Positions 11,570 through 45,660 of a stretch of 64,000 bases of DNA are shown in pieces. Source of the stretch: Candidatus Dojkabacteria bacterium. GTDB lineage: Bacteria; Patescibacteriota; Dojkabacteria; SC72; JAHDCA01. Positions within the stretch are counted from its first letter, which is position 1. Each line of letters begins with the position of its first letter. The position numbers were made by a program, and so were the translations under genes. The notes below the pieces were generated by a model. The model saw only the letters and a program-made list of their open reading frames with translations, searched no databases and was not told where the DNA came from. The stretch spans positions 907,686 to 971,685 of the forward strand of contig CP129478.1 of NCBI GenBank assembly GCA_030583845.1. The letters run 5' to 3'.

Positions 11570-11601
11570 AAAATAAATGCGACCCGCCAAAGGCGGGTCG
11601 C
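11570..11601 (-). terminator. Intrinsic terminator
   Basis: GC hairpin gcgacccgcc-aaa-ggcgggtcgc followed on the minus strand by ATTTATTTT. It lies downstream of the 11772..13664 gene. Confidence 0.55.
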
Positions 11602-11771
11602 ATTGCAGGAAGCACTACTTTATACGCACTTCCCCTTGCCGAATAACAAGCAGGTTAAGAAAGCTTAACTTTTTATTTAATTAGTATGCTACGTCTACAG
11701 GAATCTGCTCACCGTCACCACTACTATCATACATACTGCTTGCCTCGATTAACCCCTGCAAGTAAGCAAAG

Positions 11772-13664
11772 TCACCAGTTAGATGAATATGTCTTGAAAG
11801 ACTTGCTCTCAACCGCTGGCTGGTCTGAGCCACCAACACTCAGTGTGTACACATTATCCTGGTACTCAAATATGTAGTAAACGCTGTAATACTCCTCTAC
11901 CGGCTCTACGGGCATAATGTCACGGTCGCTTGATCCACTACCCGAGCTCGCAGCACTGCCACCACTCTTGCTTACTTCACTATATTGTCCATATTCAACC
12001 TGTACAGCACCAACTGTCTCACCGTTAATTGTCAGAGATACGTTGTTCACGGGAGAGTCGCCGCGATTTTGCCTGATAAGCTCTTCAAGTGATGTGCCAT
12101 CATGATAGATAGATGCACTATAGCTGGTAGAGCCTGCTGTTACGCCGTACTCAACCTCTGGGAATAGCGTATCGAGATTTGCATAAGAGGTATACTCCTG
12201 ATACATTTTCTCTCCTAGCTCACCTGGGGCATAGAAGTCGCGATCTGCCATATACTCGCTAAGCGGGTCGTTAAGATCTTCTTCGGTTGTTACATTTACA
12301 TAATTAAGTGTGAATCCATCCTCTATCGGGGTAACCAGGGTGTATTCCTCGGACTGTAACCTACTGTAAAGCTCCTCTTTCTCAGCCTCTGGGCTATAAT
12401 CGTCATCCGGATACTCAACTGTCACAACGTCAACATCCAAGTCAAACTTGAAAGTGGATGCTACCTGCTCGTAAGGCAGCTCTTCAGAGGAGTAGCTGCT
12501 GCTATGTGTATACATCAGGTTGTCATCTGATTCAGTGCCAAAGTAGCTCTCACTCTGGATGTAGCTGTAGTCAGACTTGTCATACCATGTGAGTAGCACA
12601 ATAGTTTCAGCATTTTCAGGTGACTGTTCTACAGCTCCGACTCGTACTGAGCCAACACTTTCTAAATCACAACCTGTTTCATAGCTTGTCTTTACAACAT
12701 ATGCTTCGCGGCCATCAATCATGACAATATCTACAATCTCGCCATCTATCTGTGCCACTGGCTCGTCGACTGAATCGTCGATCGGATCCGGGGTAGGCTC
12801 TGGTACACCAACACCAGGGTCTACTACTGTGGTCTCTCCACCCGCACTCCCAGGGTCATCAACGTCTGGCTCACTTGTTGGTGGACTCGCAGCTGTATCT
12901 TCAGCAGCGTCTACTGTATCGCTGTCCGCAGCAATGTCCTCTACTGCCATAAATGCGGTAGGCGAGCCTTTTATGAAAATCGCAAAGTCACCACCATAAT
13001 ATGTGTAGGAGCCTGTCTGATCAGTTAGATAATATCCAATAACATTCCCATTCGAATCGGTTGTTACATTTTTGTTGTAGTAGGCATAATTACTGTCTGT
13101 GGTGTCGTAATAGCTGTAGCTTTCTGATGTAATTGCCTCATTGGTATAGTAACCCCAAGGCGATACAGCAAGACACTTATCTCTTGCTGGACCAGCTGTA
13201 TATTTATCGATAGCTTCTGTGTACGACTTTTGATCCATCATTCTAGGAGCGAGAAGATCAGAAGCAGAATCCGCTTCGGCTGTTATTCCGTTTGCCGCAT
13301 AGCTGCTAAGCCTTGTAGCAATGGATTCGCCCCCTGTCGATGCATATCCTTGCAATTTGCCAAGTACTGATGCCTGGTCGAGTGTCCACAATTCATATCG
13401 AGACTTGATCCAGAACTGATTGGCATAGATTAAATAGCCGCCAACCAACATTGCTAGCACAGCAACGGGTATGGCTACTTTGAGAGCTTTTCTCATGGCA
13501 GAGATGAATAAAAAATTATTCTTTCCGGGCTGGCCAGCACTCTGGTCACCATTTAAGAGTAGCAATTTCTCCTCAAGCTGAGAAGCGAACTGCTCATCCG
13601 GCACAGCGTCGCTGAATTTCCCGGTGAAACTATTTAATTTTTGCTCTATTGGATCTTTACCCAT
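11772..13664 (-). CDS. Anti-sigma-factor-like membrane protein with large acidic, Ser/Thr/Tyr-rich ectodomain
   Basis: 630 aa; about 60 aa N-terminal cytoplasmic segment, a single TM helix (ALKVAIPVAVLAMLVGGYLIY) and a roughly 550 aa extracytoplasmic low-complexity region. It lies directly downstream of the ECF sigma gene. Confidence 0.45.
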   Translation of the reverse strand: MGKDPIEQKLNSFTGKFSDAVPDEQFASQLEEKLLLLNGDQSAGQPGKNNFLFISAMRKALKVAIPVAVLAMLVGGYLIYANQFWIKSRYELWTLDQASVLGKLQGYASTGGESIATRLSSYAANGITAEADSASDLLAPRMMDQKSYTEAIDKYTAGPARDKCLAVSPWGYYTNEAITSESYSYYDTTDSNYAYYNKNVTTDSNGNVIGYYLTDQTGSYTYYGGDFAIFIKGSPTAFMAVEDIAADSDTVDAAEDTAASPPTSEPDVDDPGSAGGETTVVDPGVGVPEPTPDPIDDSVDEPVAQIDGEIVDIVMIDGREAYVVKTSYETGCDLESVGSVRVGAVEQSPENAETIVLLTWYDKSDYSYIQSESYFGTESDDNLMYTHSSSYSSEELPYEQVASTFKFDLDVDVVTVEYPDDDYSPEAEKEELYSRLQSEEYTLVTPIEDGFTLNYVNVTTEEDLNDPLSEYMADRDFYAPGELGEKMYQEYTSYANLDTLFPEVEYGVTAGSTSYSASIYHDGTSLEELIRQNRGDSPVNNVSLTINGETVGAVQVEYGQYSEVSKSGGSAASSGSGSSDRDIMPVEPVEEYYSVYYIFEYQDNVYTLSVGGSDQPAVESKSFKTYSSNW

Positions 13665-28031: not shown

Positions 28032-29432
28032 ATGCCGGATTTCAAAGTACCACAAGTGGGGCCGGTCAGAGACGATCCGCAACCGGGTGGCACAATGAAC
28101 GTCGGACAGACCACTTCAAACAGCGCACCACAGCCTGACATCAAGCAGCCTGCACCGGCAACAGTCCAACCCTCAATGCAGCAGTCACAAGCTGCTCAAC
28201 CAATTGCAAACTCCCTTACAAGCTCACAGCCGCAAAGCAACTCTGTAGCGAGCCAGCCAGCAGCAGATAGCACTGGGGGAGATTTCCAAGATGACTTTGA
28301 TTGGGGTGCTGACCCATTTTCGGCACCACAGCCCATGGCTAGCACTCAGCAGCCAGTAAATAACAGCCAGCCTGCACCAATGGGTGGCGGTGGCTCGTTT
28401 GGAGGTGGTTGGGGATCACCGTGGGGAGGTGGCTCAGCTGGAGGCTGGGGAGATCCGTGGGGTGCACCAGCAGGCGGTCAGCAACCAGGACAGCAGAAGC
28501 GACTTACTCCACAGGAACGCGTCGAAATGATTGAGAGGGTGTATCAGCAGGTTTTGGTAAGAAAACCTGACACAAGAGATATCAACTATTATAAATACAG
28601 CACTCTCGGAGAGGAAGAAATTAAAAAGCAGCTGATCGACGGGAAAGAGCATAAGCAGCTAATCGAGGATGGGAGAAATTACAAGAAGTCTGAGGAGAGG
28701 GCAGAGCAGGCAGAGGCACGAGTCCGGATGCTTGAAGGGCAGGTTAAAGACCAGCTCGAAGAGTTTAGACATCTGACTGAGCTACTTGAAGAGAAGAACC
28801 GATTCATTCAGCGGCTTAGAAGCGAGAATGATGTCCAGTACGGATTCAAATCACCCACTTCAAACTCAATGGGCAACCCGAATCAATCTTACAATCTGAT
28901 GTCCACACCTTCTCAACCTGCGCCTGTACAGCAGCCGTCTCAGCCACAGGTAGCCGCGCCAATCACACAGCCCGCACCACAGATAGAGCCTCAGCCAATC
29001 GCACAGCCAGCGCCTCAGATAGAGCCACAGCAAATTCAACAGCCACAGGCGCAGTTCGAGCCTCAACAAATTCCGCAGCCAACTCCAGATTATGCAGCAG
29101 ATACTGCTCCTATTTCTCAAACAGTCCCAACTACTCAGACATCCCTTGAGCAATCAACACCATATGCTACACAAGGGGCAGTCCCTACAGCAGCCCCAGT
29201 AGCAGCTGGCCAGCACTTTTCAGCACCAGGATCAATTGAATCCGTTGATAGTGGGAATGCAGGAGCCTCATTTCCACAGGAAGAGGTGGACGAGCAGCTC
29301 CCTTTGGGTGCAAACCAGCCTGGGGTCGAGAGTGAAGATGATAATAGCGGTTGGGCCAGCAATGAGCCATCATCTGGTGCTTTGAAGCGTGTATTCGGCA
29401 AGCTTGCTTCGATTGTCTCCCCGGATCAATAG
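28032..29432 (+). CDS. Low-complexity Pro/Gln-rich protein with central DUF4214-like domain and Gly/Trp repeat
   Basis: 466 aa; 'GGGGSFGGGWGSPWGGGSAGGWGDPWG'; a DUF4214-like segment 'ERVYQQVLVRKPDTRDINYYKY'; a coiled-coil; and tandem 'QPAPQIEPQ' repeats. Confidence 0.5.
   Translation: MPDFKVPQVGPVRDDPQPGGTMNVGQTTSNSAPQPDIKQPAPATVQPSMQQSQAAQPIANSLTSSQPQSNSVASQPAADSTGGDFQDDFDWGADPFSAPQPMASTQQPVNNSQPAPMGGGGSFGGGWGSPWGGGSAGGWGDPWGAPAGGQQPGQQKRLTPQERVEMIERVYQQVLVRKPDTRDINYYKYSTLGEEEIKKQLIDGKEHKQLIEDGRNYKKSEERAEQAEARVRMLEGQVKDQLEEFRHLTELLEEKNRFIQRLRSENDVQYGFKSPTSNSMGNPNQSYNLMSTPSQPAPVQQPSQPQVAAPITQPAPQIEPQPIAQPAPQIEPQQIQQPQAQFEPQQIPQPTPDYAADTAPISQTVPTTQTSLEQSTPYATQGAVPTAAPVAAGQHFSAPGSIESVDSGNAGASFPQEEVDEQLPLGANQPGVESEDDNSGWASNEPSSGALKRVFGKLASIVSPDQ
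28968..29075 (+). repeat. Three imperfect 36-nt tandem repeats inside the PQ-rich CDS
   Basis: Units at 28968-29003, 29004-29039 and 29040-29075 encode QPAPQIEPQPIA, QPAPQIEPQQIQ and QPQAQFEPQQIP. Confidence 0.7.
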
Positions 29433-31713: not shown

Positions 31714-33644
31714 TTCTCTTTGTAGATTACTTTCTTAATTGCTTTGGCAACATTTACAGCTAACAGGGCCAGCATTAGGAATATGAATAGCGAGATCAGT
31801 TTAACAAATGTATCCCACCACCAGTAGTGCCTAATATTTACACTGTCCTCAAGAATATATGTACGCTCAGTGCCGTACAGAGAAACAATATTGAGGTCAC
31901 CTCTAAGTGCCGCAGAGCGATTCTTTGCAGCCAAATTTTCTTCTTCAATAACCAAGCTACCGGTTATCTCAATTTCTTGTCCAGGGAATATAAGAATACT
32001 TTTATCCTCTTCAAAGCTATTCTCTTTGAAATTATCCTCGAAGTCAAAACTCACACTACTGATGATGCTATTTCCATCATTATGAATCGTAAACTTTGCA
32101 CTAGATGCAGGGTTTAGTATAGAAGCCCCATCGATAATCTGGCTGCTGCTCGCCGAGAGAATTTCAGTAAAATTTCTATCTGTAAGACTCACCTCAATAT
32201 CTTCATTCAAGAAGAAACCAAGCTGTGGCTTAAATGGGTTGTAGCTCCTCGTAACGAAAGCAACGTGATCTTTAAACAGCGGGTCATACATTTGAATACC
32301 AGTGATCACCTCAATCACAGGATCCAGTACGATCCAGCCCTTCAGATTATCCCACACCTCAACCCAGCTATGGATAAATCCAGACTCGTATACTCCCGAG
32401 CTGTCTGAGATATAGCCCTGTGTCAGCCTGCTTGGGATTGAATAGGCTCTTAGAACTGCAATCAGGAAATCATTGTAGTCGGCAGCTGAAGCAATCGCTG
32501 GATTCTCTAGCACGCGCTTCCCTTGGCGGTAGTTGGTGGCTGTATCTAATTCATTTTGAGATCCGAGACGGTCGAGTACATATCGATACAAGATGTTCGC
32601 AAGCTTTGCTTGCTCTTCTGTTGACAATTTTCTAGCATCTCGCTCAAATGATTGAACAATGCCACCGTTTTGTATGTACAAATCGATGCGCTTTAGCTCT
32701 GTCTCGTCAGAGAGGTCCCAGTAATCCGCTTTTTTCGTGCTGTTTTCAAACTGCTCAAACTGAAGTGTACCACCCGTTCCCTCTTCAAATTTGATCAAGC
32801 CCTCAATCTTTACCTTTAGCTCGCTCTCTGCCGGAACTGTATAGCGGAGTGAGAGATTGCCCTCTGGATCCATAAGTACCTTTGAAGGTGGCTCAGTTAC
32901 CTCATCGATCAGCAGCTTCTGCCCATTGCCTATCTTAGGTATATTTACTTCAAATGTTTTCTGGATCTCATCTGTATTTACGAATTGCTTATTGATGCTA
33001 AATTCATAAACAAACTGGTCGGAACCGGAAATCAGTAGCGAGTCGTTCTCTGGTGAGGCGAAGTTAATTATCTTCTGGTTGTTCTGCTCAATGATTGTCA
33101 TCCCCTTAAGCACAGGAATGAGTAGGTCATCAAAAGGTGAGTTAAGTGTAATCTTCACGTGCTCGGAAGTCGTAGAGCTTATGTGGAGAGGTAATTCACT
33201 GCTCTCGCCCTCCTGCATAAACTTTCCTTTGCTAAACGTTATCCTAAACTGTGCTCCTCTGGTTCGATCAATAGTGAGGTTGTTTAGGTCGACGACAAGC
33301 CGTGTTCCTTCTGATACATCGTTGTGACTTACTGTATACGCACGGTCACCCTTTTTCACACCGACATTATCGATCTGCTTAAATGGGAGGGTAATGGTGA
33401 AAAATTTAACAACATTTGCTGCCCCTTCCTCTGGTATGACATGTAGCTGAATCTCTGTAGAAAGTGTTCCCTCGCTGTTGATCGTATAGATGATTGAAGT
33501 AGTTTGTGTAAAGCCTGCAGCACTATCTTCAGAGGAAGCATATAAGTGAGTGGGGAGGAGAGATGTGAATAGGGCGAGTGCAAGTAAAATCGCTGAGCTA
33601 CACTTTGATAGAATTTTCTTTAAATAGCCAGTCGAACTTGTCAT
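31710..33644 (-). CDS. Secreted transglutaminase-like (papain-fold) domain protein lacking the nucleophile Cys, with C-terminal TM anchor (operon gene 2)
   Basis: 644 aa; signal peptide and an N-terminal beta-rich domain. Core '…AADYNDFLIAVLRAYSIPSRLTQGY…GFIHSWVEVWDNLKGWIVLDP' matches the TGase-core 'G.C.dfA…lRa.GIPAR…HaWvEv…GW…DP', but there is no Cys in the nucleophile segment. A C-terminal TM helix follows. Confidence 0.55.
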   Translation of the reverse strand: MTSSTGYLKKILSKCSSAILLALALFTSLLPTHLYASSEDSAAGFTQTTSIIYTINSEGTLSTEIQLHVIPEEGAANVVKFFTITLPFKQIDNVGVKKGDRAYTVSHNDVSEGTRLVVDLNNLTIDRTRGAQFRITFSKGKFMQEGESSELPLHISSTTSEHVKITLNSPFDDLLIPVLKGMTIIEQNNQKIINFASPENDSLLISGSDQFVYEFSINKQFVNTDEIQKTFEVNIPKIGNGQKLLIDEVTEPPSKVLMDPEGNLSLRYTVPAESELKVKIEGLIKFEEGTGGTLQFEQFENSTKKADYWDLSDETELKRIDLYIQNGGIVQSFERDARKLSTEEQAKLANILYRYVLDRLGSQNELDTATNYRQGKRVLENPAIASAADYNDFLIAVLRAYSIPSRLTQGYISDSSGVYESGFIHSWVEVWDNLKGWIVLDPVIEVITGIQMYDPLFKDHVAFVTRSYNPFKPQLGFFLNEDIEVSLTDRNFTEILSASSSQIIDGASILNPASSAKFTIHNDGNSIISSVSFDFEDNFKENSFEEDKSILIFPGQEIEITGSLVIEEENLAAKNRSAALRGDLNIVSLYGTERTYILEDSVNIRHYWWWDTFVKLISLFIFLMLALLAVNVAKAIKKVIYKEK

Positions 33645-34326
33645 ATTTGCGGAGTATCTGTTTTACGATCGGTGTCTTAAGGGTAATGTTATTCTTCACC
33701 ACAACCTCATCCCATCTAATCTTCCTAACCTTCGTTATGTCTCTATAGCGTGGATTCTGAACGACTTCCTGCTTTGCATTTTTTCTAATAACATAATATG
33801 CCATACCCTGCATGGAGTCTAGCTGTGATACATGTTTTGTGACTGAACTATAAGCCTCTACGACAATCATTGCAGTATTACGAGTATTGACTAGGGTAAC
33901 ATCGTAGCCTGGAGGGACGATAAACTTCTGCTCTCTCTTAATTTTTGAATAGATAATATCTGAATCATCTTGATGGAACTTCTGCATAATGACACTTCCA
34001 GTCCCGTAAATGACTTCCATGATTTTGGGATGTGTGGGGAGACGTGTGGCTCTTGTTTTTACAAACTCGATGCCTGCAAAATTGGCTGGGATCACATAGA
34101 TATTTACCTTGAGACCCTTAGTTTTGAAGATATTGTCGTGATCAAGCCCCATGTACTTGTAATAAAAGACCTCTGGGGATGTAAGCTCCTCGTTTAAGAG
34201 TTGTGGGCGAATCTGGTCAATTTCTACTTTGCCAACCTCCTCAAACTGCATATCTTGTGTTGTAAGTTGGTAATCGTCTAGATACAACGAGAACCCGGCA
34301 GATTTTCTCAGGTCTACTTTCGCCAT
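33598..34326 (-). CDS. Cupin protein with similarity to archaeal-type glucose-6-phosphate isomerase (cPGI); metal ligands not conserved (operon gene 1)
   Basis: 242 aa; 'PEVFYYKY…NIYVIPANFAGIEF…FIVPPGYDVTLVNT…VVQNPRYRD' parallels Pyrococcus cPGI 'PVVYEVYAV…TVLYPGKVGKEF…VYVPPYWAHRTVN…VVDNPRWK'. The GHFH/His ligand positions read TRATRL / TL here. I am recalling the cPGI comparison from memory rather than from an alignment. Confidence 0.4.
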   Translation of the reverse strand: MAKVDLRKSAGFSLYLDDYQLTTQDMQFEEVGKVEIDQIRPQLLNEELTSPEVFYYKYMGLDHDNIFKTKGLKVNIYVIPANFAGIEFVKTRATRLPTHPKIMEVIYGTGSVIMQKFHQDDSDIIYSKIKREQKFIVPPGYDVTLVNTRNTAMIVVEAYSSVTKHVSQLDSMQGMAYYVIRKNAKQEVVQNPRYRDITKVRKIRWDEVVVKNNITLKTPIVKQILRKYDKFDWLFKENSIKV

Positions 34327-34349
34327 GGGTCATTATACCACACGACATT

Positions 34350-34416
34350 TTTGTGAAACTGCGCTGCGTTTCACGAACTCCGCCTTCGTGAAGTCGCACT
34401 TGCAAAGTGCGACTTC
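34350..34416. repeat. Array of three adjacent hairpins, the last a perfect 12-bp palindrome
   Basis: Hairpin 1: gtgaaac-t-gcgctgc-gtttcac (34353-34374). Hairpin 2: cacgaa-ctccgcc-ttcgtg (34371-34389). Hairpin 3: gaagtcgcactt-gca-aagtgcgacttc (34390-34416). It shares 'aactccgccttc' plus the 'aagtcgcactt' unit with the nrdD 3' tail at 44725-44782. Confidence 0.5.
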
Positions 34417-34418
34417 AT

Positions 34419-35183
34419 TTATAGGTCTTCGAGGTAGTAGTTTAGCTCAACCATATAGTTGTTGACGCCATTTGCCCATTCATGACGCGGATTCTGTGCA
34501 CAAGGTGGGCAGTAGGTTGCCTCAATTTGGAACGGGGTTAGATCTGTGCCATATCCCTTGGCAAGCCTCTCAGTCACTACCGATATTCCGTCTGACCAGG
34601 TTGCGAATCTGCTCCATGTGCTTCTGCCGTTTATTCTCCCTCCTCGCCATCCCCAAGCGTTATTCGATCCGGCAGGAGTAATATTTCCGAATGCAGACTC
34701 CACGCCGGAAATTGATGCCACCAGCCTCCAATCGAGCCCATGCTCGTCTGCCTCTTCTACAAATACTTCAGCGTACGGATACATTGGGGAGCTGTGGTCT
34801 TCAAGAAACTGCCTCATTGCGATATTTCTTGGATCAGTAGTGATAAAGTTACTGCCAACATTTCGTGGATTGGATATATCTGTTGGTGCCTTATTGAGAT
34901 TTAGGGCAAGAGCAGAGTCAAAGATCTTTATATCGCTATTTTCAACTTCAGTGAGTATCTTACTTTGCTCTGCAGACACATTTTCAGAATTATATTCTAT
35001 CAACCTTGATTCAATTTGCGGCGTAGCGATTGGGTCGAATGCAAAAACAAATAGGAGACACATTGAGATAATAAATATTATTCGCTTCTTTCCTGTGCGT
35101 TCTGTAGTACGCCTAATAATGCTAGATGTACCCCTACCTAAACTGGATAGCTTTTTCTTACTAACTATGTCTCTTTTCATCAC
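34419..35183 (-). CDS. Secreted glucosaminidase (GH73-like) domain protein, putative peptidoglycan hydrolase
   Basis: 254 aa; N-terminal TM; 'LVASISGVESAFGNITPAGSNNAWGW' resembles the FlgJ/GH73 'ESgwG' motif. Confidence 0.4.
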   Translation of the reverse strand: MMKRDIVSKKKLSSLGRGTSSIIRRTTERTGKKRIIFIISMCLLFVFAFDPIATPQIESRLIEYNSENVSAEQSKILTEVENSDIKIFDSALALNLNKAPTDISNPRNVGSNFITTDPRNIAMRQFLEDHSSPMYPYAEVFVEEADEHGLDWRLVASISGVESAFGNITPAGSNNAWGWRGGRINGRSTWSRFATWSDGISVVTERLAKGYGTDLTPFQIEATYCPPCAQNPRHEWANGVNNYMVELNYYLEDL

Positions 35184-40207: not shown

Positions 40208-41526
40208 AATTCGAAGTCATCTTTCGTATAGCCGCTCCTCTTATCTTGTAAATTCTTCAGCATATAGTCAATCATCTGATTTTCGGTACTGAAAGATGTC
40301 AGCACAAACATCTGGCCACTGCGATAGTTTTCAAATACATACGCTGTGCCTCCCATTCCAGGAGCAGCAATTTGTGCTTCAAGCACACTTCTCCCTTCAT
40401 ACTCAATATAGGTCGAACTAACAACCTTCCATCCAGACCCTGAAAATTCTTCTTCTCTGTTTTCAGCCTCTCGCGAATCTGTTGTGTCGGAAAGTAGCCC
40501 ATCTGAGTTCGATCCTGATTCTGTGTCAGGCTTTGAGATATATGCATCATTGCTGTTTACCCTCTCGATAAATTCTACCAACATCACATCTGGAGGAAGC
40601 GAGCCCGCGCGACCAAGTGGCTCGAGGAAGACTTTTTCATCTTTGCCAATCTTTTTTAGCTCAACCCCTTGTGAATTTTCAATCTCAGTATCGTAGTAGC
40701 GGATCAGATACTCATTGGGAACTTTGAGATTCCATGGAAAGTGGGGGAGAAATTCGTTGCCTTCAGTCGAAGAGATAATAAGCTCTCGCTCATTTTCCAA
40801 GCGTACCTGGGCAGCAAGGCCCGATTTTGCTTCTTCAACTGAGATTTTCTGATACCAGATATCATTAAGCTTGTTATAGATTCTTAAGGCATTTTCTCCA
40901 TCTTTTTTGATCCAATACTCTCCATACATCATCTCGTTGGAGGTTCTTGGTACGGACAAGATATGCTCCCATCCTGATGATGGCAGGATAGCGTTGTAAT
41001 AATCTGCTACCTCCTTGAAGACTATATCCGGAGGGAGCCTGTAAACAGACTCGCCGTTAGAAAGGAATTTTTTGACGCTCTCCTCTTCAATATAATCCTT
41101 ATACACAAACTGTGAGCCAGGGTAAATCGGAAGCTCCTTGAAGCCAACAACCTTTTCTTTGGCGACAGCGACACCATTTACAGATTCAACCTTGCTAGCA
41201 CGGATAGAGACAACTTGGAGGATCCCTTGGTAGGCACCATAGATCACGAATAATGGGAGAATCATTATAGCTGCAACCTTAGCTACATTTCCAGCTGCTT
41301 TGCGAGCCTTGCCATATCCTTGGCGCTTCATTTTGGCCTTATTGCTGCTTTTGCGTGAGCTCAGGGCTCGCTTTATGCGACTAGGCTTCCTTCTGGCTAC
41401 AGGTTTTCTCTGGCGCTTGGCGTTTTTCTTAAAGCTCGAGGACATATATGTCTTTGCACCTTGTTGGCTGGTGCTACTGGCTTTCTTGGCGGCTTTTCGT
41501 TTAATCTTTTGAGGCTTCCTGGGCAT
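40204..41526 (-). CDS. Hypothetical membrane protein with about 75-aa Lys/Arg-rich cytoplasmic N-terminus and large extracytoplasmic domain
   Basis: 440 aa; N-terminus 'MPRKPQKIKRKAAKK…KMKRQGYGKARKAAG', one TM helix, then a roughly 340 aa ectodomain. Confidence 0.45.
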   Translation of the reverse strand: MPRKPQKIKRKAAKKASSTSQQGAKTYMSSSFKKNAKRQRKPVARRKPSRIKRALSSRKSSNKAKMKRQGYGKARKAAGNVAKVAAIMILPLFVIYGAYQGILQVVSIRASKVESVNGVAVAKEKVVGFKELPIYPGSQFVYKDYIEEESVKKFLSNGESVYRLPPDIVFKEVADYYNAILPSSGWEHILSVPRTSNEMMYGEYWIKKDGENALRIYNKLNDIWYQKISVEEAKSGLAAQVRLENERELIISSTEGNEFLPHFPWNLKVPNEYLIRYYDTEIENSQGVELKKIGKDEKVFLEPLGRAGSLPPDVMLVEFIERVNSNDAYISKPDTESGSNSDGLLSDTTDSREAENREEEFSGSGWKVVSSTYIEYEGRSVLEAQIAAPGMGGTAYVFENYRSGQMFVLTSFSTENQMIDYMLKNLQDKRSGYTKDDFEF

Positions 41527-41667
41527 AGTATAAATATATTACCATAAGTCTGGTAAATTATAGGACAATATTTTGCTTTATGACTTTGATCTTGGTCTGG
41601 ATTGCTAAAAGCGCGAAAGGATATTAAAATTGGTTGCCGTGATGGGTTTAGTGCGGCATGTTGATGC

Positions 41668-41738
41668 TGCGGGATCGTCTAATGGTAGGACACCGGCCTT
41701 TGAAGCCGAGAATCGGGGTTCAAATCCCTGTCCCGCAA
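41668..41738 (+). tRNA. tRNA-Gln (anticodon TTG)
   Basis: U1-A72 acceptor pair (TGCGGGA/TCCCGCA) typical of bacterial tRNA-Gln, anticodon loop CTTTGAA, T-loop TTCAAAT. CCA is not encoded. Confidence 0.8.
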
Positions 41739-41935
41739 CGTCCCGAGAGCGTAGCGATCGGTTGACGTGCGTGGATGCCACGTAGTGGCGCCCGCATCCA
41801 AGAACGAAGTGATTGGCAAGCACTCGTGGGTGTCGCGAAGCGACGCCCGCATCCGAGAGCGAAGCGATCGGCTGGTACTGGTGGATGCCGCGAAGTGAAA
41901 CGAAGCGGCGCCCGTATCCAAGAACGAACAATTAC
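41739..41935 (+). repeat. GC-rich tandem duplicated structured element between tRNA-Gln and nrdR
   Basis: Copy 1 spans about 41741-41809 and copy 2 about 41851-41929, sharing (t/a)tccgagagcg(t/a)agcgatcgg…tggatgcc(a/g)c…g(t/c)ggcgcccg(c/t)atccaagaacgaa. A third 'gacgcccgcatcc' lies at 41842-41853. Each copy folds as tggat-GCCRC-loop-GYGGC-gcccgy-atcca, with compensatory A-T to G-C changes. Local GC content is much higher than in the flanking DNA. Confidence 0.6.
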
Positions 41936-41939
41936 AACT

Positions 41940-42398
41940 ATGAAATGTCCGTACTGTGCTTCTACCAACTCAAAGGTAGTTGACAAAAGAAATAAAGAAG
42001 AAGGAATAATACGAAGGCGTAGAGAGTGTCTTAAATGCTCAAAGCGCTTCACCACATATGAACGCGTCGAAAATGTCGATCTCACCGTGGTCAAGAAAGA
42101 TGGGACACACGAGCAGTATAGCCGCGAGAAATTAACCAAAGGAGTGCGGAAAGCAGTCACAAATGCAGAGCTAAATATGGATCAGATCTCAAGCATGGTT
42201 GATGATATTGAGATGCATCTTCTAAGCATGGAGAGTACCGAGATCAACTCAAGTGAGATCGGCATGCTTGTACTCGAGAGGCTGAAAAAGCTTGACCCAC
42301 TTGGCTATATGCGTTTTGCATCAGTGTATAAAGATTTTCAATCTCTTGAGCAATTTAGAGATGAGCTGGACGAGCTGCTCAAAGAGTCAAAGAAGTAA
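41940..42398 (+). CDS. nrdR: Transcriptional repressor NrdR
   Basis: 152 aa; 'MKCPYCAST…CLKC' zinc ribbon plus an ATP-cone. The ORF-track entry 41775..42398 includes non-coding upstream repeat sequence. Confidence 0.9.
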   Translation: MKCPYCASTNSKVVDKRNKEEGIIRRRRECLKCSKRFTTYERVENVDLTVVKKDGTHEQYSREKLTKGVRKAVTNAELNMDQISSMVDDIEMHLLSMESTEINSSEIGMLVLERLKKLDPLGYMRFASVYKDFQSLEQFRDELDELLKESKK

Positions 42399-42450
42399 AT
42401 CTTCTCTGATTGATTTCATCACCTGTTACGATAGTGTTCGGCTTATAACC

Positions 42451-42467
42451 CCACATACAATTTGTGG
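42451..42467 (+). promoter_or_regulatory. NrdR-box-like palindrome upstream of nrdD
   Basis: ccACATAcAATtTGTGg is an imperfect 16-17 bp palindrome resembling the AT-rich NrdR-box consensus (acaCwAtATaTwGtgt). Confidence 0.35.
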
Positions 42468-42562
42468 AACATACCAATCCCACAACATTTCGGCTAAATA
42501 ATAATATAGGCCTAGCTCTTTGCTTGACTGGCACAACCTGTTGCGGTAGCTTGGTTGCAGAT

Positions 42563-42578
42563 GGCAATATATTGTGTA
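42563..42578 (+). promoter_or_regulatory. Second NrdR-box-like site upstream of nrdD
   Basis: ggcAATATATTGTGTa; the 3' half matches ATaTwGtgt exactly. Confidence 0.3.
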
Positions 42579-42686
42579 TGCTAAGCATTGTGAAGTGTGC
42601 ATTATTTTATCTGACTCCGCTAACCTATCATTCAGCCCAAGGCATAGAATGACAGGCTAACGGGATTAAATTAAATCGCACCAGCA

Positions 42687-44786
42687 ATGAAAGAGAGTCG
42701 TGGCTTCGCAAAGGTGATCAAGCGTGATGGACGCAAAGTTTCATTTTCCAAGCAGAGGTTGACCAATTCTATCTATAAGGCTGCCGAAGTAATCGGAGGC
42801 AGTGACAAACAGAGGGCGGAAGAGGTAGCGTCAGAAGTTATTAGCAAATTAAAAAAATCAAACGACGGTTCAGCCGTAAGCTCCACAGAAATATATCAGC
42901 AAGTTATTAGCACGCTTAAAGAGATGGGGCACGGCAAGACAGCGCACTCGTATGCTCTTTTCAGGGATATAAATAACAAGGCCAGAAATATCAAATCGCT
43001 AATTGATGCGGAAGAGCTAGTGCGGGATTACATAGGTGAATCGGATTGGCGGGTCAATGAGAATAGCAATATGGCTTACTCATGGCAGGGGCTAAACAAT
43101 CATATCTCATCCTCTGTACAGGCAAACTACTGGTTGCACACAATATACCCCAAAGAGATTGCAAATGCCCATATAGAAGCGGATATGCATATTCACGATC
43201 TGGGAATGCTGGCTATCTACTGCTGTGGATGGAGCCTGCAGGATCTACTATTGAGAGGATTTACTGGTGTTCCTGGGAAGGTATCGTGTGCCCCTCCAAA
43301 GCACTTCTCGACCGCACTTGGTCAGGTTGTTAACTTCCTCTATACATTGCAGCATGAAGCAGCAGGAGCACAGGCATTCTCAAGCTTCGATACATATCTT
43401 GCTCCATTCATCAGGTATGACAATCTTGACTACGGCAGAGTAAAGCAGGAAATTCAAGAATTTGTCTTCAATATGAATGTCCCAACACGGGTGGGATGCC
43501 AGACACCATTTACCAATATCACGATGGATATACTCCCTAGCGGTGCTTTGGCTGAGGAAAGCGTGATAATAGGGGGCAAACTGATGCCAGAAAAGTACAA
43601 AGACTTTGAACCAGAGATGCTGATGATTAATAAGGCCTTCGCAGAGGTAATGATGGAGGGCGATGCGAGTGGTAGAGTTTTTACATTCCCAATACCGACA
43701 TACAACATAACCAAAGATTTCGATTGGAACAACCCTGAGCTAACAGCTATCTGGGAAATGACAGCAAAGTATGGAATCCCATATTTCTCAAATTTCATTA
43801 ACTCAGACATGAACCCGGATGATGCGCGTTCTATGTGCTGCAGGCTAAGGCTGGATAACAGAGAGCTAAGAAAGCGTGGAGGAGGGCTGTTTGGCTCTAA
43901 CCCGCTTACAGGGAGTATCGGGGTTGTGACGATAAATATGCCCAGAATAGGCCACACGGCTAAGAGTAAGAAGCAGTTCTTTGAGAAGCTAGAGTCGATG
44001 ATGGAGCTAGCTAAAGAGAGTTTGATCATAAAGCGTAATGTGCTTGAGGATCTCTCTGAGAAGGGGCTCTATCCATACTCTCGCTACTATCTTTCAAGCG
44101 TGAAAGAAAGATTTGGTAAATATTGGAAGAATCACTTCAATACAATCGGAATTAATGGTATGAACGAGGCGTTGCTCAACTTTTTGGGCGAAGATATAAC
44201 TAGCGAGAAGGGTCATGCATTTGCTCTCGAGGTTATGGATTTTATGAGAGAGAAAATAGGTGGTTATCAAGAAGAAACAGGCGACATTTTCAACCTTGAA
44301 GCGACTCCAGCAGAATCGACAGCATATAGATTCGCGAAATCAGATGTTAAAAAGTATCCAGGGATTGTAGTAGCAAATAAGGAGGCTGACCTGGCTGACC
44401 CATACTACACCAACTCCTCACAGCTACCGGTGGGATTTACCGAGGATCTATTTGAAGCTCTCGACCTCCAAGATAGTTTGCAGTGCAAATATACTGGAGG
44501 GACTGTATTTCACGCTTTCCTTGGAGAGAGAATCCCGAATCTTGAGGCAACAAAGAAACTTGTAAAGCGAATGTGTGAGAAGTACAGTATGCCCTATTTC
44601 TCAATCACTCCAACATTTAGCATCTGTCCAAAGCATGGCTATCTTGAAGGAGAGCATGAGTATTGTCCGAGGTGTGACGAGGAGATCGGTTATGCACCTG
44701 ATGAGGAGGTTGTTGATGACTTGGCAAAGTCGCACTTATTAAGTCGGACTTATCAAGTCGCACTTCGTGAAGGCGGAGTTATATAG
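42687..44786 (+). CDS. nrdD: Anaerobic ribonucleoside-triphosphate reductase (class III), ending before the glycyl-radical motif
   Basis: 699 aa; N-terminal ATP-cone, class III RNR core and a C-terminal Zn site '…SICPKHGYLEGEHEYCPRC…'. The ORF ends '…DDLAKSHLLSRTYQVALREGGVI*' at TAG 44784-44786, with a second in-frame TAA at 44790-44792. No RVxGY motif is present. Confidence 0.9.
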   Translation: MKESRGFAKVIKRDGRKVSFSKQRLTNSIYKAAEVIGGSDKQRAEEVASEVISKLKKSNDGSAVSSTEIYQQVISTLKEMGHGKTAHSYALFRDINNKARNIKSLIDAEELVRDYIGESDWRVNENSNMAYSWQGLNNHISSSVQANYWLHTIYPKEIANAHIEADMHIHDLGMLAIYCCGWSLQDLLLRGFTGVPGKVSCAPPKHFSTALGQVVNFLYTLQHEAAGAQAFSSFDTYLAPFIRYDNLDYGRVKQEIQEFVFNMNVPTRVGCQTPFTNITMDILPSGALAEESVIIGGKLMPEKYKDFEPEMLMINKAFAEVMMEGDASGRVFTFPIPTYNITKDFDWNNPELTAIWEMTAKYGIPYFSNFINSDMNPDDARSMCCRLRLDNRELRKRGGGLFGSNPLTGSIGVVTINMPRIGHTAKSKKQFFEKLESMMELAKESLIIKRNVLEDLSEKGLYPYSRYYLSSVKERFGKYWKNHFNTIGINGMNEALLNFLGEDITSEKGHAFALEVMDFMREKIGGYQEETGDIFNLEATPAESTAYRFAKSDVKKYPGIVVANKEADLADPYYTNSSQLPVGFTEDLFEALDLQDSLQCKYTGGTVFHAFLGERIPNLEATKKLVKRMCEKYSMPYFSITPTFSICPKHGYLEGEHEYCPRCDEEIGYAPDEEVVDDLAKSHLLSRTYQVALREGGVI
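44725..44782 (+). repeat. 14-nt x3 tandem repeat plus shared 12-mer forming the nrdD 3' tail
   Basis: aagtcgcacttatt / aagtcggacttatc / aagtcgcacttcgt, followed by gaaggcggagtt. The latter is the reverse complement of 'aactccgccttc' at 34376-34387, and the aagtcgcactt unit equals the arm of the 34390-34416 palindrome. Confidence 0.5.
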
Positions 44787-44810
44787 AATTAAATTTATTA
44801 TATTAGTATT

Positions 44811-44942
44811 ATGGCAATCAAGCCAAAAAGACAGAAGTGTGAAGTATATTCGAGAGTGGTCGGCTATCTTAGGCCTGTCTCTCAGTGGAACAAAGGAAAG
44901 AAGTCTGAGTGGGTAGACAGAGTAGAGTATCGCAAGAAGTAG
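44811..44942 (+). CDS. Stand-alone 43-aa ORF encoding the class III RNR glycyl-radical motif
   Basis: Manual translation gives MAIKPKRQKCEVYSRVVGYLRPVSQWNKGKKSEWVDRVEYRKK*. 'EVYSRVVGYLRPV…NKGK' is the canonical NrdD C-terminal glycyl-radical segment. It is in the same frame as nrdD and separated from it by TAG and TAA. The six-frame track omits it because it is short. Confidence 0.6.
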   Translation: MAIKPKRQKCEVYSRVVGYLRPVSQWNKGKKSEWVDRVEYRKK

Positions 44943-44964
44943 AAGAATTTATTCTAGAACAGAT

Positions 44965-45660
44965 ATGGTTATCGCTGGCTTAGAGAAGCTTACACTTCTC
45001 GATTATCCTGGGCGGCTTTCCGCAATAATATTCACCTATGGGTGCAATATGGTCTGCTCATATTGTCACAACCCTGAGCTTGTTGTCGGAAAGCTAAATC
45101 GTAAGGCAATATATAGTGAAGACGAAGTGCTAAAGTTTCTTGAAACTCGCGTCGGAAAGCTAGATGCCGTCACTATAACAGGTGGTGAGCCCACAATGCA
45201 TAAAGACCTTCCCCAATTCATTAAAAAAGTTAAGGAGCTCGGCTTTGAATTAAAACTAGACACAAATGGGAGCTTTCCAAAGATAGTTGCTGCGATTGCA
45301 GAAACGGGGCTGGTGGATTACTGGGCGATGGACGTGAAGTATGCCGAAGAGCTTTATAGTCAAGGATTGAATGGCGGCCAGATGATTACCGGGATAAATG
45401 AGTCTATTCAGACTATAATGAATTGTGGCGCAGAGTATGAATTTCGTACAACATATATAAGGAGTCTACATAATGATGAAAGCGTAGAGAAGATTGGACA
45501 GATGGTTAATGGGGCGAAGTCATACTACATACAAAACTTCCGTCCTGGCAAGACAATAGACCCAAGCCTTACAGGCAAAGAGAGCTTTAAACCGAATGAG
45601 CTTGAGCATTTCGCACAAATAATGAGAAATTATGTGGATCGAGTAGAGATTCGGGCATGA
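44965..45660 (+). CDS. nrdG: Anaerobic ribonucleotide reductase activating protein (radical SAM)
   Basis: 231 aa; 'YGCNMVCSYCHNPE' CxxxCxxC cluster motif and a SAM-binding 'ITGGEP' motif. Confidence 0.9.
   Translation: MVIAGLEKLTLLDYPGRLSAIIFTYGCNMVCSYCHNPELVVGKLNRKAIYSEDEVLKFLETRVGKLDAVTITGGEPTMHKDLPQFIKKVKELGFELKLDTNGSFPKIVAAIAETGLVDYWAMDVKYAEELYSQGLNGGQMITGINESIQTIMNCGAEYEFRTTYIRSLHNDESVEKIGQMVNGAKSYYIQNFRPGKTIDPSLTGKESFKPNELEHFAQIMRNYVDRVEIRA

What the first reader, a model, noticed from the sequence alone, without database searches (positions are those of the whole stretch)
44725..44782. The nrdD 3' tail is built from a repeat family that recurs in an intergenic hairpin array at 34350-34416
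The last 19 codons of nrdD are encoded by a 14-nt x3 tandem (aagtcgcacttatt / aagtcggacttatc / aagtcgcacttcgt) followed by gaaggcggagtt. The 12-mer aactccgccttc at 34376-34387 is the exact reverse complement of that last part. It is flanked by the same aagtcgcactt unit, there arranged as a perfect 12-bp palindrome (gaagtcgcactt-gca-aagtgcgacttc). At 34350-34416 this forms three consecutive hairpins between two minus-strand genes. This looks like a small REP/MITE-like palindromic element family. One copy coincides exactly with the premature end of nrdD, suggesting insertional disruption or terminator capture.
Basis: seen in the sequence. Interest (0 to 1): 0.6.

Follow-up and report, generated by a model that had tools for sequence, protein, structure and literature searches.

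The report
Repeat element inside a naturally split nrdD
The repeat is real and belongs to a small family of hairpin elements at gene ends, but it did not break nrdD: in this bacterial group the anaerobic ribonucleotide reductase is normally made from two genes, a large core and a 43-residue peptide that carries the radical site.

Summary
Observation confirmed. 44727-44780 holds three 14-nt units plus GAAGGCGGAGTT, and 34376-34417 holds the matching 12-mer next to a 13-bp palindrome.

The family is real but small. Only two loci lie in the window. Two more copies lie just outside it in contigs of a 99% identical strain, giving four copies in about 73 kb. All four sit at gene 3' ends in one orientation. 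A sister species lacks the element at both orthologous sites.

"Premature end / insertional disruption" is wrong. The core ORF and this ORF together cover positions 3-683 of a 684-position NrdD model. The element-free sister species has the same split.
- 118 of the 120 closest NrdD homologues lack the radical domain.
- Every core with enough downstream DNA is followed by a small radical-domain gene.
- In Halothermothrix orenii that gene lies after nrdG and has its own ribosome-binding site.
- The small ORF is under purifying selection like the core's.

The element therefore sits in an unconstrained tail of an anciently split, two-subunit class III reductase. I found no description of such a split; a 2026 review says small glycyl-radical proteins are known only for formate lyases.

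The parts
42687..44786 (+). nrdD core ORF (699 aa): ATP-cone, catalytic barrel and Zn ribbon (CPKH...CPRC). It has no glycyl-radical domain. Residues 666-699 form a non-conserved tail.
   Evidence: Pfam NRDD profile positions 1-531 of 562 match residues 125-665, and ATP-cone matches residues 9-97. NCBIfam NF006126 positions 3-651 of 684, 1029 bits against a cut-off of 548. Against the sister species, pN 0.11 and pS 0.88.
44717..44780 (+). Repeat-element copy C, inside the tail-coding end of the core ORF. X units at 44727-44737, 44741-44751 and 44755-44765; Y unit GAAGGCGGAGTT at 44769-44780. A partial unit GACTT at 44717-44721 pairs into the hairpin.
   Evidence: The RNA fold of 44714-44784 is -23.1 kcal/mol, z = -3.64, 0 of 200 shuffles as stable; the orthologous stretch of the sister species is unstructured (z = +0.38). 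It aligns with copies A, B and D.
44784..44810 (+). AT-rich junction block: TAG, aat, TAA, then TATATT-N6 immediately before the ATG of ORF2. It is conserved in the sister species and carries stop codons in more than one frame.
   Evidence: No Shine-Dalgarno sequence, but only 1 of 42 genes in this window has one. No consensus promoter or terminator was found by the scan.
44811..44942 (+). ORF2, 43 aa (MAIKPKRQKCEVYSRVVGYLRPVSQWNKGKKSEWVDRVEYRKK): a separately encoded glycyl-radical subunit of NrdD. It is in frame with the core ORF but separated from it by two stop codons.
   Evidence: Pfam NRDD profile positions 530-562 of 562. NF006126 positions 649-683 of 684. Residues 8-32 align to Thermotoga maritima NrdD 611-635, around the RIVGY motif. 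pN 0.10 and pS 0.83 against the sister species. 1115 homologous proteins were found, and the 120 best listed are all 41-75 aa.
44965..45660 (+). nrdG, the radical-SAM activase of class III RNR.
   Evidence: TIGR02495 NrdG2, 181 bits against a cut-off of 131. Pfam Radical_SAM and Fer4_12.
41940..42398 (+). nrdR repressor. The likely true start is the ATG at 41940; the listed ORF from 41775 runs through an upstream tandem repeat.
   Evidence: Zn_ribbon_NrdR starts at residue 56 of the 207-aa ORF. Relatives have NrdR of 154-158 aa. Sequence read.
34353..34417 (-). Repeat-element copy B, the full bipartite form. Read on the minus strand: hairpin 1 GAAGTCGCACTT-TGC-AAGTGCGACTTC (34389-34417), Y GAAGGCGGAGTT (34376-34387), hairpin 2 GTGAAAC-N8-GTTTCAC (34353-34374). 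It starts 2 nt after the stop of gene 34419..35183 and is followed by a conserved TGnTATAAT in front of gene 33598..34326.
   Evidence: It is identical in three independent Logan assemblies. Hairpin 1 and Y are absent at the orthologous site in the sister species, while hairpin 2 and the TATAAT are conserved there.

Best explanation
Two separate things overlap here.

(1) nrdD is a naturally split, two-gene class III ribonucleotide reductase.
- The 699-aa core (ATP-cone, barrel, Zn ribbon) ends in a disordered, linker-derived tail.
- A separately translated 43-aa peptide (44811-44942) carries the RVVGY glycyl-radical site.
- nrdG follows.
- Inferred mechanism: NrdG abstracts the glycine hydrogen of the free or docked peptide. 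The peptide then inserts into the core barrel as the covalent C-terminal domain does in single-chain NrdD. After oxygen cleavage only the 43-aa piece would need replacing.

(2) The 14-nt tandem is one degenerate copy of a lineage-specific family of palindromic elements of about 41-68 nt.
- Architecture: X = AAGTCGCACTT, 3 nt, its near reverse complement, 3 nt, Y = GAAGGCGGAGTT, and sometimes a second hairpin.
- The elements sit at gene 3' ends in this Dojkabacteria species.
- Because the end of the core ORF is a genuine gene end with an unconstrained tail, a copy became established there. It is read through in frame (KSHLLSRTYQVALREGGVI) until the conserved AT-rich stop block.
- It arrived after the split and did not cause it.
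For: The split is real and old.
- The core ORF and ORF2 tile NRDD profile positions 1-531 and 530-562, and NF006126 positions 3-651 and 649-683 of 684.
- The sister species has the identical layout with a 24-nt gap and a 43-aa ORF but no element.
- 118 of the 120 closest NrdD homologues lack the glycyl-radical motif.
- Among 68 related loci, about 41 are split and about 27 intact. Every radical-domain-less core with enough downstream DNA has a radical-domain ORF within 1.3 kb. The only two loci without one are cut by contig ends.
- Relative frames 0, 1 and 2 all occur, with gaps from -176 to +715 nt.
- ORF2 has its own strong Shine-Dalgarno sequence in lineages that use one.
- In the complete genome of cultured Halothermothrix orenii the order is core, nrdG, then a 51-aa radical-domain gene.
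- ORF2 has pN 0.10 and pS 0.83, the same as the core.
- Intact relatives with a long linker (CPKCDEEIGYAG...KKRTYCEVYSR) show where splitting occurred.

The element family is real.
- Copies A (L129:15146-15207) and D (L128:11941-11975) share the architecture and spacing.
- All four copies abut a stop codon or overlap the last codons of a gene, in the same orientation.
- Copy A gives a second gene the tail KSHLASATW* in the same frame (my own reading of the sequence).
- The element is absent from both orthologous sites in the sister species.
- The tail is structured only in the element-bearing lineage.
Against: - No experiment shows that the two polypeptides assemble or that the enzyme is active. 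The rest of the genome was not available, so a second RNR cannot be excluded.
- Copy number of the family genome-wide is unknown.
- Copies A and D come from a 99.2-99.8% identical strain, not from the window's own record, and copy D is cut by a contig end.
- Inside the window the similarity alone is only in the top 1% of random segments.
- A GTDB-wide scan for paired units returned only scattered single hits in unrelated taxa. A JGI metagenome scan for the X-Y junction returned nothing. Neither scan returned the window's own loci, although both patterns match them, so the source genome appears not to be in either collection; the family is so far seen only in this species.
- The nrdD copy has three direct units instead of an inverted pair. 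It could therefore owe part of its form to local slippage.
Confidence: 0.75

Rival explanations
1. One reading: a REP/MITE-like element inserted into an intact nrdD, truncated it, and left a pseudogene or crippled enzyme.
For: The element does supply the last 19 codons and lies next to the stop of the 699-aa ORF. Neither ORF product is in the NCBI protein set for this genome, which is compatible with the locus being annotated as a pseudogene.
Against: - The element-free sister species has the same split and the same 24-nt gap.
- 118 of the 120 closest homologues are split.
- The glycyl-radical coding part is intact, has its own ATG, and is under purifying selection.
- NrdD homology ends 45 nt before the first unit.
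- There is no target-site duplication and no clean empty site.
Confidence: 0.03
2. There is no element family. The nrdD tail array is local replication slippage in a hypervariable tail, and its resemblance to the hairpin at 34.4 kb is chance or convergence of GC-rich terminator-like hairpins.
For: - Tails of relatives also carry private tandem duplications (EIGYIEIGYI; DPSKAGIDPLRAGIDP).
- Only two loci lie in 64 kb.
- 2 of 300 random segments reach the same alignment score.
- There were no hits in GTDB Dojkabacteria or in JGI metagenomes.
Against: - Two additional copies have the same three-module order, the same 3-nt spacers, an exact 12-mer and an exact 11-mer.
- Orientation relative to the abutting gene is consistent in all four.
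- The Logan contig breaks inside copy D, as happens at repeats.
Confidence: 0.07
3. The nrdD copy has a selected function. This would be compatible with the best explanation. As an RNA stem-loop at the core/ORF2 junction it would terminate, pause or stabilise the core transcript, or stall terminating ribosomes. That would uncouple the amounts of core and radical peptide, with ORF2-nrdG expressed from a leaderless promoter (TATATT-N6-ATG).
For: - The fold is significant (-23.1 kcal/mol, z = -3.6), and the sister species has none.
- All four copies lie within about 3 nt of a stop codon or overlap one.
- TATATT-N6-ATG is conserved in the sister species.
- Several other genes in the window have a TATAAT-like hexamer a few nt before their ATG, and almost none has a Shine-Dalgarno sequence.
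- From my own knowledge, not verified here: E. coli REP elements close to stop codons lower the output of the upstream gene.
Against: - No U-tract and no consensus promoter were found by the scan.
- The sister species manages without the element.
- No expression data are available.
Confidence: 0.2
4. Recoding or splicing restores a single-chain NrdD, through stop-codon read-through, ribosomal bypass as in T4 gene 60, or a small intron or intein.
For: In this window ORF2 is in frame with the core ORF (2124 nt apart), and the gap is short.
Against: - Two different stop codons (TAG and TAA) lie within 9 nt.
- Relatives use all three relative frames, overlaps, and gaps up to 715 nt, with nrdG in between in H. 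orenii.
- ORF2 has its own Shine-Dalgarno sequence in other lineages.
- No Rfam family, intron or otherwise, matches 41500-45100 even at E <= 1.
- A 24-nt gap is too short for an intron.
Confidence: 0.02

Closest known systems
REP (repetitive extragenic palindromic) elements of Proteobacteria
   Same: Short imperfect palindromes. Dispersed copies, mostly at gene 3' ends or between genes. Lineage-specific, and able to form stable RNA or DNA hairpins.
   Different: - No conserved GTAG head.
- No RAYT transposase was looked for or found, because the rest of the genome was not available.
- Copy number is known only as 4 in about 73 kb.
- There is an extra non-palindromic Y module and an optional second hairpin.
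- Two of the four copies are read as the last codons of proteins.
GrcA/YfiD and T4 Y06I 'spare-part' autonomous glycyl-radical proteins for pyruvate formate-lyase
   Same: A small free-standing polypeptide that carries the glycyl-radical loop. It is presumably activated by the cognate radical-SAM activase and docks into a large catalytic barrel.
   Different: - ORF2 is NrdD-type, not PFL-type. It hits only the last 33-35 positions of NrdD models.
- It is 43 aa rather than 127 aa.
- The partner core has no radical domain of its own, so ORF2 would be an obligate subunit rather than a repair part.
- A 2026 review says spare-part proteins are known only for formate lyases (PMC13450708). Andorfer et al. 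2021 only speculate about other glycyl-radical enzymes (PMC8683613).
Split ribonucleotide reductases: NrdJa/NrdJb of Pseudomonas aeruginosa (class II), and the phage Aeh1 nrdA split by a homing-endonuclease gene (class I)
   Same: An RNR catalytic subunit encoded as two genes that must reassemble non-covalently. NrdJa/NrdJb is mentioned in PMC9669993. The Aeh1 case is from my own knowledge.
   Different: - This one is class III.
- The cut separates the radical-bearing 35-residue loop from everything else.
- No mobile gene lies in the gap.
- The split is found in many lineages with different junctions.
Canonical single-chain NrdD (T4, E. coli, Thermotoga maritima; PF13597, TIGR02487, NF006126)
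   Same: The core and ORF2 together reproduce the full domain order. ORF2 residues 8-32 align to the T. maritima RIVGY segment.
   Different: Two polypeptides instead of one. There is a linker-derived tail on the core, and the second Zn ligand is His (CPKH) in this subfamily.

Membership tests
REP-like palindromic repeat family | Short imperfect palindrome able to form a stable hairpin | tested here: met
   A palindrome with 13-nt arms at 34389-34417, whose predicted hairpin has a 12-13-bp stem. The nrdD copy folds at -23.1 kcal/mol with z = -3.6.
REP-like palindromic repeat family | Many dispersed copies in one genome | tested here: inconclusive
   Two copies lie in the 64-kb window, and two more lie in about 10 kb of flanking sequence from a conspecific strain. 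The rest of the 1.04-Mb genome could not be read. The GTDB and JGI scans did not return the window's own loci, although the patterns match them, so the genome appears not to be in those collections.
REP-like palindromic repeat family | Extragenic position, typically just downstream of genes | tested here: met
   Copies B and D start 2-3 nt after a stop codon. Copies A and C overlap the last codons of a gene. All four have the same orientation relative to that gene.
REP-like palindromic repeat family | Conserved 5' GTAG head and an associated RAYT (IS200/IS605-type) transposase | not tested
   No GTAG head is visible in the four-copy alignment. The genome was not available for a RAYT search, and the window's proteins were not scanned for one.
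MITE | Terminal inverted repeats flanked by a target-site duplication, with a clean empty site in relatives | tested here: not met
   At both orthologous sites the sister species has unrelated sequence of a different length, not a precise excision. No duplication flanks 44717-44780 or 34376-34417.
Intrinsic (rho-independent) terminator | GC-rich stem-loop followed directly by a U-tract on the transcribed strand | tested here: not met
   The scan found no terminator-like sites in 44300-45100 or 34100-34700. On the transcribed strand hairpin 1 is followed by ACGAAGG. A canonical example in the same genome (11576-11604, followed by UUUAUUUU) shows what one looks like.
Class III ribonucleotide reductase NrdD (PF13597 / NF006126) | Catalytic barrel and Zn ribbon | tested here: met
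   The core ORF gives 623 bits to PF13597 and 1029 bits to NF006126, against a cut-off of 548.
Class III ribonucleotide reductase NrdD (PF13597 / NF006126) | C-terminal glycyl-radical domain (RVxGY) on the same polypeptide | tested here: not met
   The core ORF stops at profile position 531 of 562. The motif is on the separate ORF2, after TAG and TAA. The locus is therefore a split variant, not a canonical member.
Class III ribonucleotide reductase NrdD (PF13597 / NF006126) | Adjacent NrdG activase | tested here: met
   44965-45660 matches TIGR02495 at 181 bits, above the cut-off of 131.
GrcA/YfiD autonomous glycyl-radical cofactor (IPR011140) | Small protein homologous to the PFL C-terminus that coexists with a full-length enzyme | tested here: not met
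   ORF2 hits only NrdD models, with no PFL or GrcA model among the hits. The partner gene lacks its own radical domain. It may work like GrcA, but it is not a member.
Programmed read-through or translational bypass | Fixed frame relation and recoding signals conserved among relatives, with no independent start | tested here: not met
   Relatives show frames 0, 1 and 2, overlaps, and an intervening nrdG. ORF2 has its own ATG, and its own Shine-Dalgarno sequence where such sequences are used.
Group I/II intron or intein | Ribozyme or intein sequence between the two coding parts | tested here: not met
   No Rfam match in 41500-45100 at E <= 1. The gap is 24 nt. Inteins do occur elsewhere in some Dojkabacteria NrdD cores (P0062), but not at this site.

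The most novel reading that the evidence does not exclude
Class III ribonucleotide reductase exists in nature as an obligate two-component glycyl-radical enzyme. A 41-75-aa diffusible peptide would carry the radical and dock into a radical-less core. The arrangement is widespread (Dojkabacteria, Azambacteria, Halothermothrix, other Bacillota; more than 1000 protein clusters) and arose by splitting a long disordered linker. It would act as a cheap replaceable 'radical cartridge': after oxygen cleavage only the peptide would be resynthesised and reactivated. This would be the first such system outside the formate lyases, and the first case in which the large subunit has no radical domain at all.
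Probability: 0.55. Interest if true: 0.75.

Novelty: new variant of a known kind. Interest (0 to 1): 0.6.

Why it matters
All glycyl-radical enzymes are destroyed by oxygen through backbone cleavage at the radical glycine. The only known remedy is the PFL spare-part protein GrcA/YfiD. Workers in the field have asked whether other glycyl-radical enzymes have equivalents (PMC8683613), and a 2026 review says none is known (PMC13450708).

A naturally split NrdD, with the radical loop on a 43-aa peptide, gives a directly testable system. Halothermothrix orenii is cultured, and the three genes are small enough to express. The system bears on three questions:
- how activases recognise the radical domain;
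- how the domain enters the barrel;
- whether splitting is an oxygen-damage economy measure in small-genome anaerobes.

There is also a practical consequence. Annotation pipelines may call such loci pseudogenes or 'incomplete': neither product is in the NCBI protein set for this genome. That could lead metabolic reconstructions of CPR bacteria to score them wrongly as lacking a functional RNR.

The repeat family itself is a modest addition. It is a REP-like element family in a CPR genome, and two of its four known copies are translated as protein tails.

Tried and rejected
- Phage origin: megablast of 42687-45000 against the phage collection found nothing. Homologue names place the window in Candidatus Dojkabacteria.
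- Known RNA or intron in the junction: Rfam at gathering threshold over the whole window found only 4 tRNAs. Rfam at E <= 1 over 41500-45100 found only the tRNA at 41668-41738.
- Genome-wide census of the repeat:
  - The pattern AAGTCGSACTT-N1-6-AAGTSSSACTT in GTDB genomes gave 51 scattered hits in unrelated taxa, none in Dojkabacteria. These are background palindromes.
  - The X-Y junction pattern in JGI metagenomes gave 0 hits.
  - Neither scan returned the window's own loci, although both patterns match them. Neither collection therefore appears to hold this genome, and the census failed.
- Consensus promoter and terminator scans at both loci found nothing on the relevant strands.
- Extra copies within the window, using degenerate patterns and up to 2 mismatches: none beyond the two loci.
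- Target-site duplications and an empty site, by alignment to the sister species: no clean boundaries.
- Prior description of a split NrdD or an NrdD-type spare part: six full-text searches and the papers read gave nothing.
- REP literature: a search for REP elements near termination codons found no paper, and a search for REP elements in CPR bacteria found one paper, which I did not open.
- Read-through or bypass was considered because ORF2 is in frame here. It was rejected on comparative grounds.
- A structure prediction of the complex was not attempted, because the tool folds single chains only.
Full report
**1. The observation**

The sequence is as described.
- Positions 44727-44768 hold three 14-nt units (AAGTCGCACTTATT, AAGTCGGACTTATC, AAGTCGCACTTCGT). 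GAAGGCGGAGTT follows at 44769-44780.
- That 12-mer is itself a diverged fourth unit (AAGGCGGAGTT against AAGTCGGACTT). TRF also reports a 29-nt period.
- At 34376-34387 lies the exact reverse complement, AACTCCGCCTTC. Next to it is a perfect palindrome with 13-nt arms at 34389-34401 / 34405-34417.
- The 11-mer occurs 6 times at up to 1 mismatch, against 1.04 expected.
- Sharing the 12-mer alone is unremarkable: 3 of 100 shuffles do as well.
- A local-alignment test puts the pair in about the top 1% of random 58-nt segments, 2 of 300.
- Degenerate searches find no third locus in the window.

**2.

Twenty-four nucleotides after the TAG of the 699-aa ORF, an ATG at 44811 opens a 43-codon ORF: MAIKPKRQKCEVYSRVVGYLRPVSQWNKGKKSEWVDRVEYRKK.
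- Pfam NRDD aligns profile positions 1-531 to the long ORF and 530-562 to the short one.
- NCBIfam NF006126 aligns positions 3-651 and 649-683 of 684.
- Residues 8-32 of the short ORF align to the RIVGY segment of Thermotoga maritima NrdD.
- nrdG follows at 44965-45660, and nrdR precedes at 41940-42398.

The locus therefore encodes a complete class III RNR, but in two pieces.

**3. The split is ancestral and widespread**

Close relatives:
- A sister species has core (700 aa), a 24-nt gap, a 43-aa ORF and then nrdG. Its core is 83% identical (locus L001).
- Of the 120 closest homologues (at least 66% identity, named Dojkabacteria/WS6 where a name is given), 118 lack the radical motif. They end 8-58 residues after the Zn-ribbon CxxC, with non-conserved tails.

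The small ORF elsewhere:
- A search with the 43-aa ORF found 1115 proteins. The best 120 are all 41-75 aa.
- Named sources include Azambacteria, Bacillota and Halothermothrix orenii.
- In the complete H. orenii genome the order is core (676 aa), nrdG, then a 51-aa radical-domain gene preceded by AAAAGGAGG.

The 68 related loci:
- My script counted 45 split and 23 intact. Four of the 'split' calls have overlapping alignments and are probably intact, which gives about 41 split and about 27 intact.
- Relative frames 0, 1 and 2 all occur, and gaps run from -176 to +715 nt.
- Every radical-domain-less core with enough downstream sequence has the small ORF within 1.3 kb. The only two exceptions are cut by contig ends.
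- Intact relatives have either a short linker (CPKCGEVCEVYSR) or a long one (CPKCDEEIGYAGMIRQLNSGKQ...KKRTYCEVYSR). Split forms look like the long linker cut in two.

Selection and alternatives:
- Between the window and the sister species, ORF2 has pN 0.10 and pS 0.83, against 0.11 and 0.88 for the core. That is strong purifying selection with saturated synonymous sites.
- The tail after GYxPxEE is not alignable.
- These facts exclude a recent truncation, a decaying pseudogene, a sequencing artefact, read-through or bypass, and an intron. For the last, Rfam finds nothing and the gap is 24 nt.

**4. The repeat is a real small family, younger than the split**

Source genome:
- The glucose-6-phosphate-isomerase-like protein of the window is WKZ31058.1, from an NCBI Dojkabacteria MAG with a 1.04-Mb contig.
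- Neither the GTDB scan nor the JGI scan returned the window's own loci, although the patterns match them. Those collections therefore appear not to hold this genome.

Two more copies:
- Logan contigs of a conspecific strain (99.2-99.8% identity) extend the window by about 9.4 kb and 0.8 kb. Each extension contains one more copy.
- Copy A is L129:15146-15207, about 8.7 kb before the window. Copy D is L128:11941-11975, about 0.75 kb past the window end and cut by the contig end.

Architecture, from the alignment of the four copies:
- X (AAGTCGCACTT), 3 nt, the reverse complement of X, 3 nt, Y (GAAGGCGGAGTT).
- In copies A and B a second hairpin follows (GTGAAAC-N8-GTTTCAC, degenerate in A).

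Position and orientation:
- Copies B and D begin 2-3 nt after a stop codon.
- Copy A overlaps the end of a thiamine-diphosphate-enzyme gene and gives it the tail KSHLASATW* (my own reading). This is the same reading frame as nrdD's KSHLLSRTY...
- Copy C is the nrdD tail.
- All four have the same orientation relative to the gene that ends there.

Comparison with the sister species:
- It lacks hairpin 1 and Y at the orthologous intergenic site. It keeps the second hairpin and the downstream TGnTATAAT.
- It lacks the array in nrdD.
- Neither site shows a clean empty site or a target-site duplication.

Structure and the junction:
- The nrdD copy still folds: -23.1 kcal/mol, z = -3.6. The sister's tail does not fold: z = +0.4.
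- The AT-rich block between the ORFs (TATAT[A/T][G/T]AATTAA...TATATT-N6-ATG) is conserved in both species. It contains stop codons in more than one frame, which would explain why indels in the tail are tolerated.

**5. Mechanism: shown and inferred**

Shown:
- A two-gene architecture.
- Conservation, co-occurrence and independent translation signals for the small ORF.
- The element's family character, its position at gene ends, and its later arrival.

Inferred:
- The 43-aa peptide is the substrate of NrdG and docks into the core barrel, supplying the radical to the finger-loop cysteine.
- Because oxygen cleaves glycyl-radical enzymes at the radical glycine, a split enzyme would lose only a 43-aa piece. 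This parallels GrcA/YfiD rescue of PFL (PMC8683613, PMC13450708).
- Alternatively, the split may be neutral fragment complementation across a disordered linker.
- The element may act as a 3' stem-loop (stabiliser, pause site or attenuator). There is no U-tract and no consensus promoter, so this stays a hypothesis.
- This genome almost never uses Shine-Dalgarno sequences (1 of 42 genes). Several genes have a TATAAT-like hexamer a few nt before the ATG. ORF2's SD-less, TATATT-N6-ATG start is therefore normal here and could be leaderless.

**6. Comparison with what is known**

- The element works like a REP element, but REP membership is unproven: copy number and RAYT are untested, and there is no GTAG head. 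It fails the MITE and intrinsic-terminator definitions.
- The enzyme is a split variant of NrdD.
- ORF2 may work like GrcA, but it is not a GrcA-family member, and its partner core has no radical domain of its own.
- Split RNRs are known for class II (NrdJa/NrdJb; PMC9669993). From my own knowledge, one is also known for a phage class I enzyme.
- I found no description of a split class III enzyme in six full-text searches. A June 2026 review states that formate lyases are the only glycyl-radical enzymes with small spare-part proteins.
- NCBIfam has no model for the small subunit. It only grazes the C-terminal 31-36 positions of full-length models, far below their cut-offs.

**7. Verdict**

- The element itself is ordinary.
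- The split NrdD that it drew attention to is the notable feature. It appears undescribed and is directly testable.
- Limits: there is no genome-wide census of the element, copies A and D come from a sister strain, and there is no functional evidence for assembly of the two polypeptides.

Noticed in passing
window 41770-41930: A GC-rich tandem repeat of about 55 nt, 2.3-3 copies, each with an internal GGATGC...GCATCC stem. It lies between a tRNA (41668-41738) and the likely true start of nrdR (ATG 41940). The mechanical ORF list fuses it to nrdR as a 55-residue N-terminal extension. No Rfam match.
   Followed up: partly
window, 42 gene starts: Only 1 of 42 long ORFs has a Shine-Dalgarno-like motif. 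Several have a TATAAT-like hexamer a few nt before the ATG (for example 21037, 22821, 33598, 35259). This suggests widespread leaderless or very short-leader mRNAs in this Dojkabacteria genome.
   Followed up: partly
L129:15178-15210 (about 8.7 kb before the window start, conspecific strain): Copy A of the repeat element supplies the last 9 codons (KSHLASATW) and the TGA stop of a minus-strand thiamine-diphosphate-enzyme gene. The reading frame is the same as in the nrdD tail.
   Followed up: partly
L128:11941-11975 (about 0.75 kb past the window end): The Logan contig ends inside copy D of the element, directly after the stop of a dihydroorotate-dehydrogenase gene. An assembly break at this point is what a multi-copy repeat would cause.
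   Followed up: no
window 42687-44942, against the NCBI record that holds WKZ31058.1: Neither the 699-aa core nor the 43-aa ORF product is in the NCBI protein set for this genome. Both are known only from Logan assemblies. The locus may therefore be annotated as a pseudogene or left unannotated. Split nrdD loci could be under-counted in metabolic reconstructions.
   Followed up: partly
proteins P0062 (1018 aa) and P0092 (1001 aa), Dojkabacteria NrdD cores: Two radical-domain-less NrdD cores carry an insertion of about 300 aa with weak matches to the Intein_splicing (P0062 only) and LAGLIDADG domains (both), at or below Pfam's own cut-offs. A gene that is already split may therefore also carry an intein.
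   Followed up: partly
window 11576-11604: A perfect 13-bp GC-rich hairpin followed by UUUAUUUU on the minus strand, downstream of gene 11772..13664. It is a canonical intrinsic terminator, unrelated in sequence to the X/Y family, and a useful contrast.
   Followed up: yes
L046:3360-3450 (Saccharibacteria) and L012:1838-1866 (Parcubacteria): Other CPR genomes carry clusters of the perfect 13-nt palindrome GAAGTCGGACTTC / GAAGTCCGACTTC, 3-4 copies within 90 nt in L046. Its core equals the middle unit of the nrdD array. This could be coincidence from the search pattern, or a wider CPR motif.
   Followed up: no
L129:767-2015 against window 4456-4511: The conspecific strain has about 1.25 kb, a gene for an SMI1/KNR4-ankyrin protein, where the window has only about 56 nt. 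This is a strain-level indel.
   Followed up: no
window 28958-29045: A 36-nt tandem repeat (2.4 copies, 83% matches) inside ORF 28032..29432, in the most GC-rich 2-kb bin of the window (0.497).
   Followed up: no
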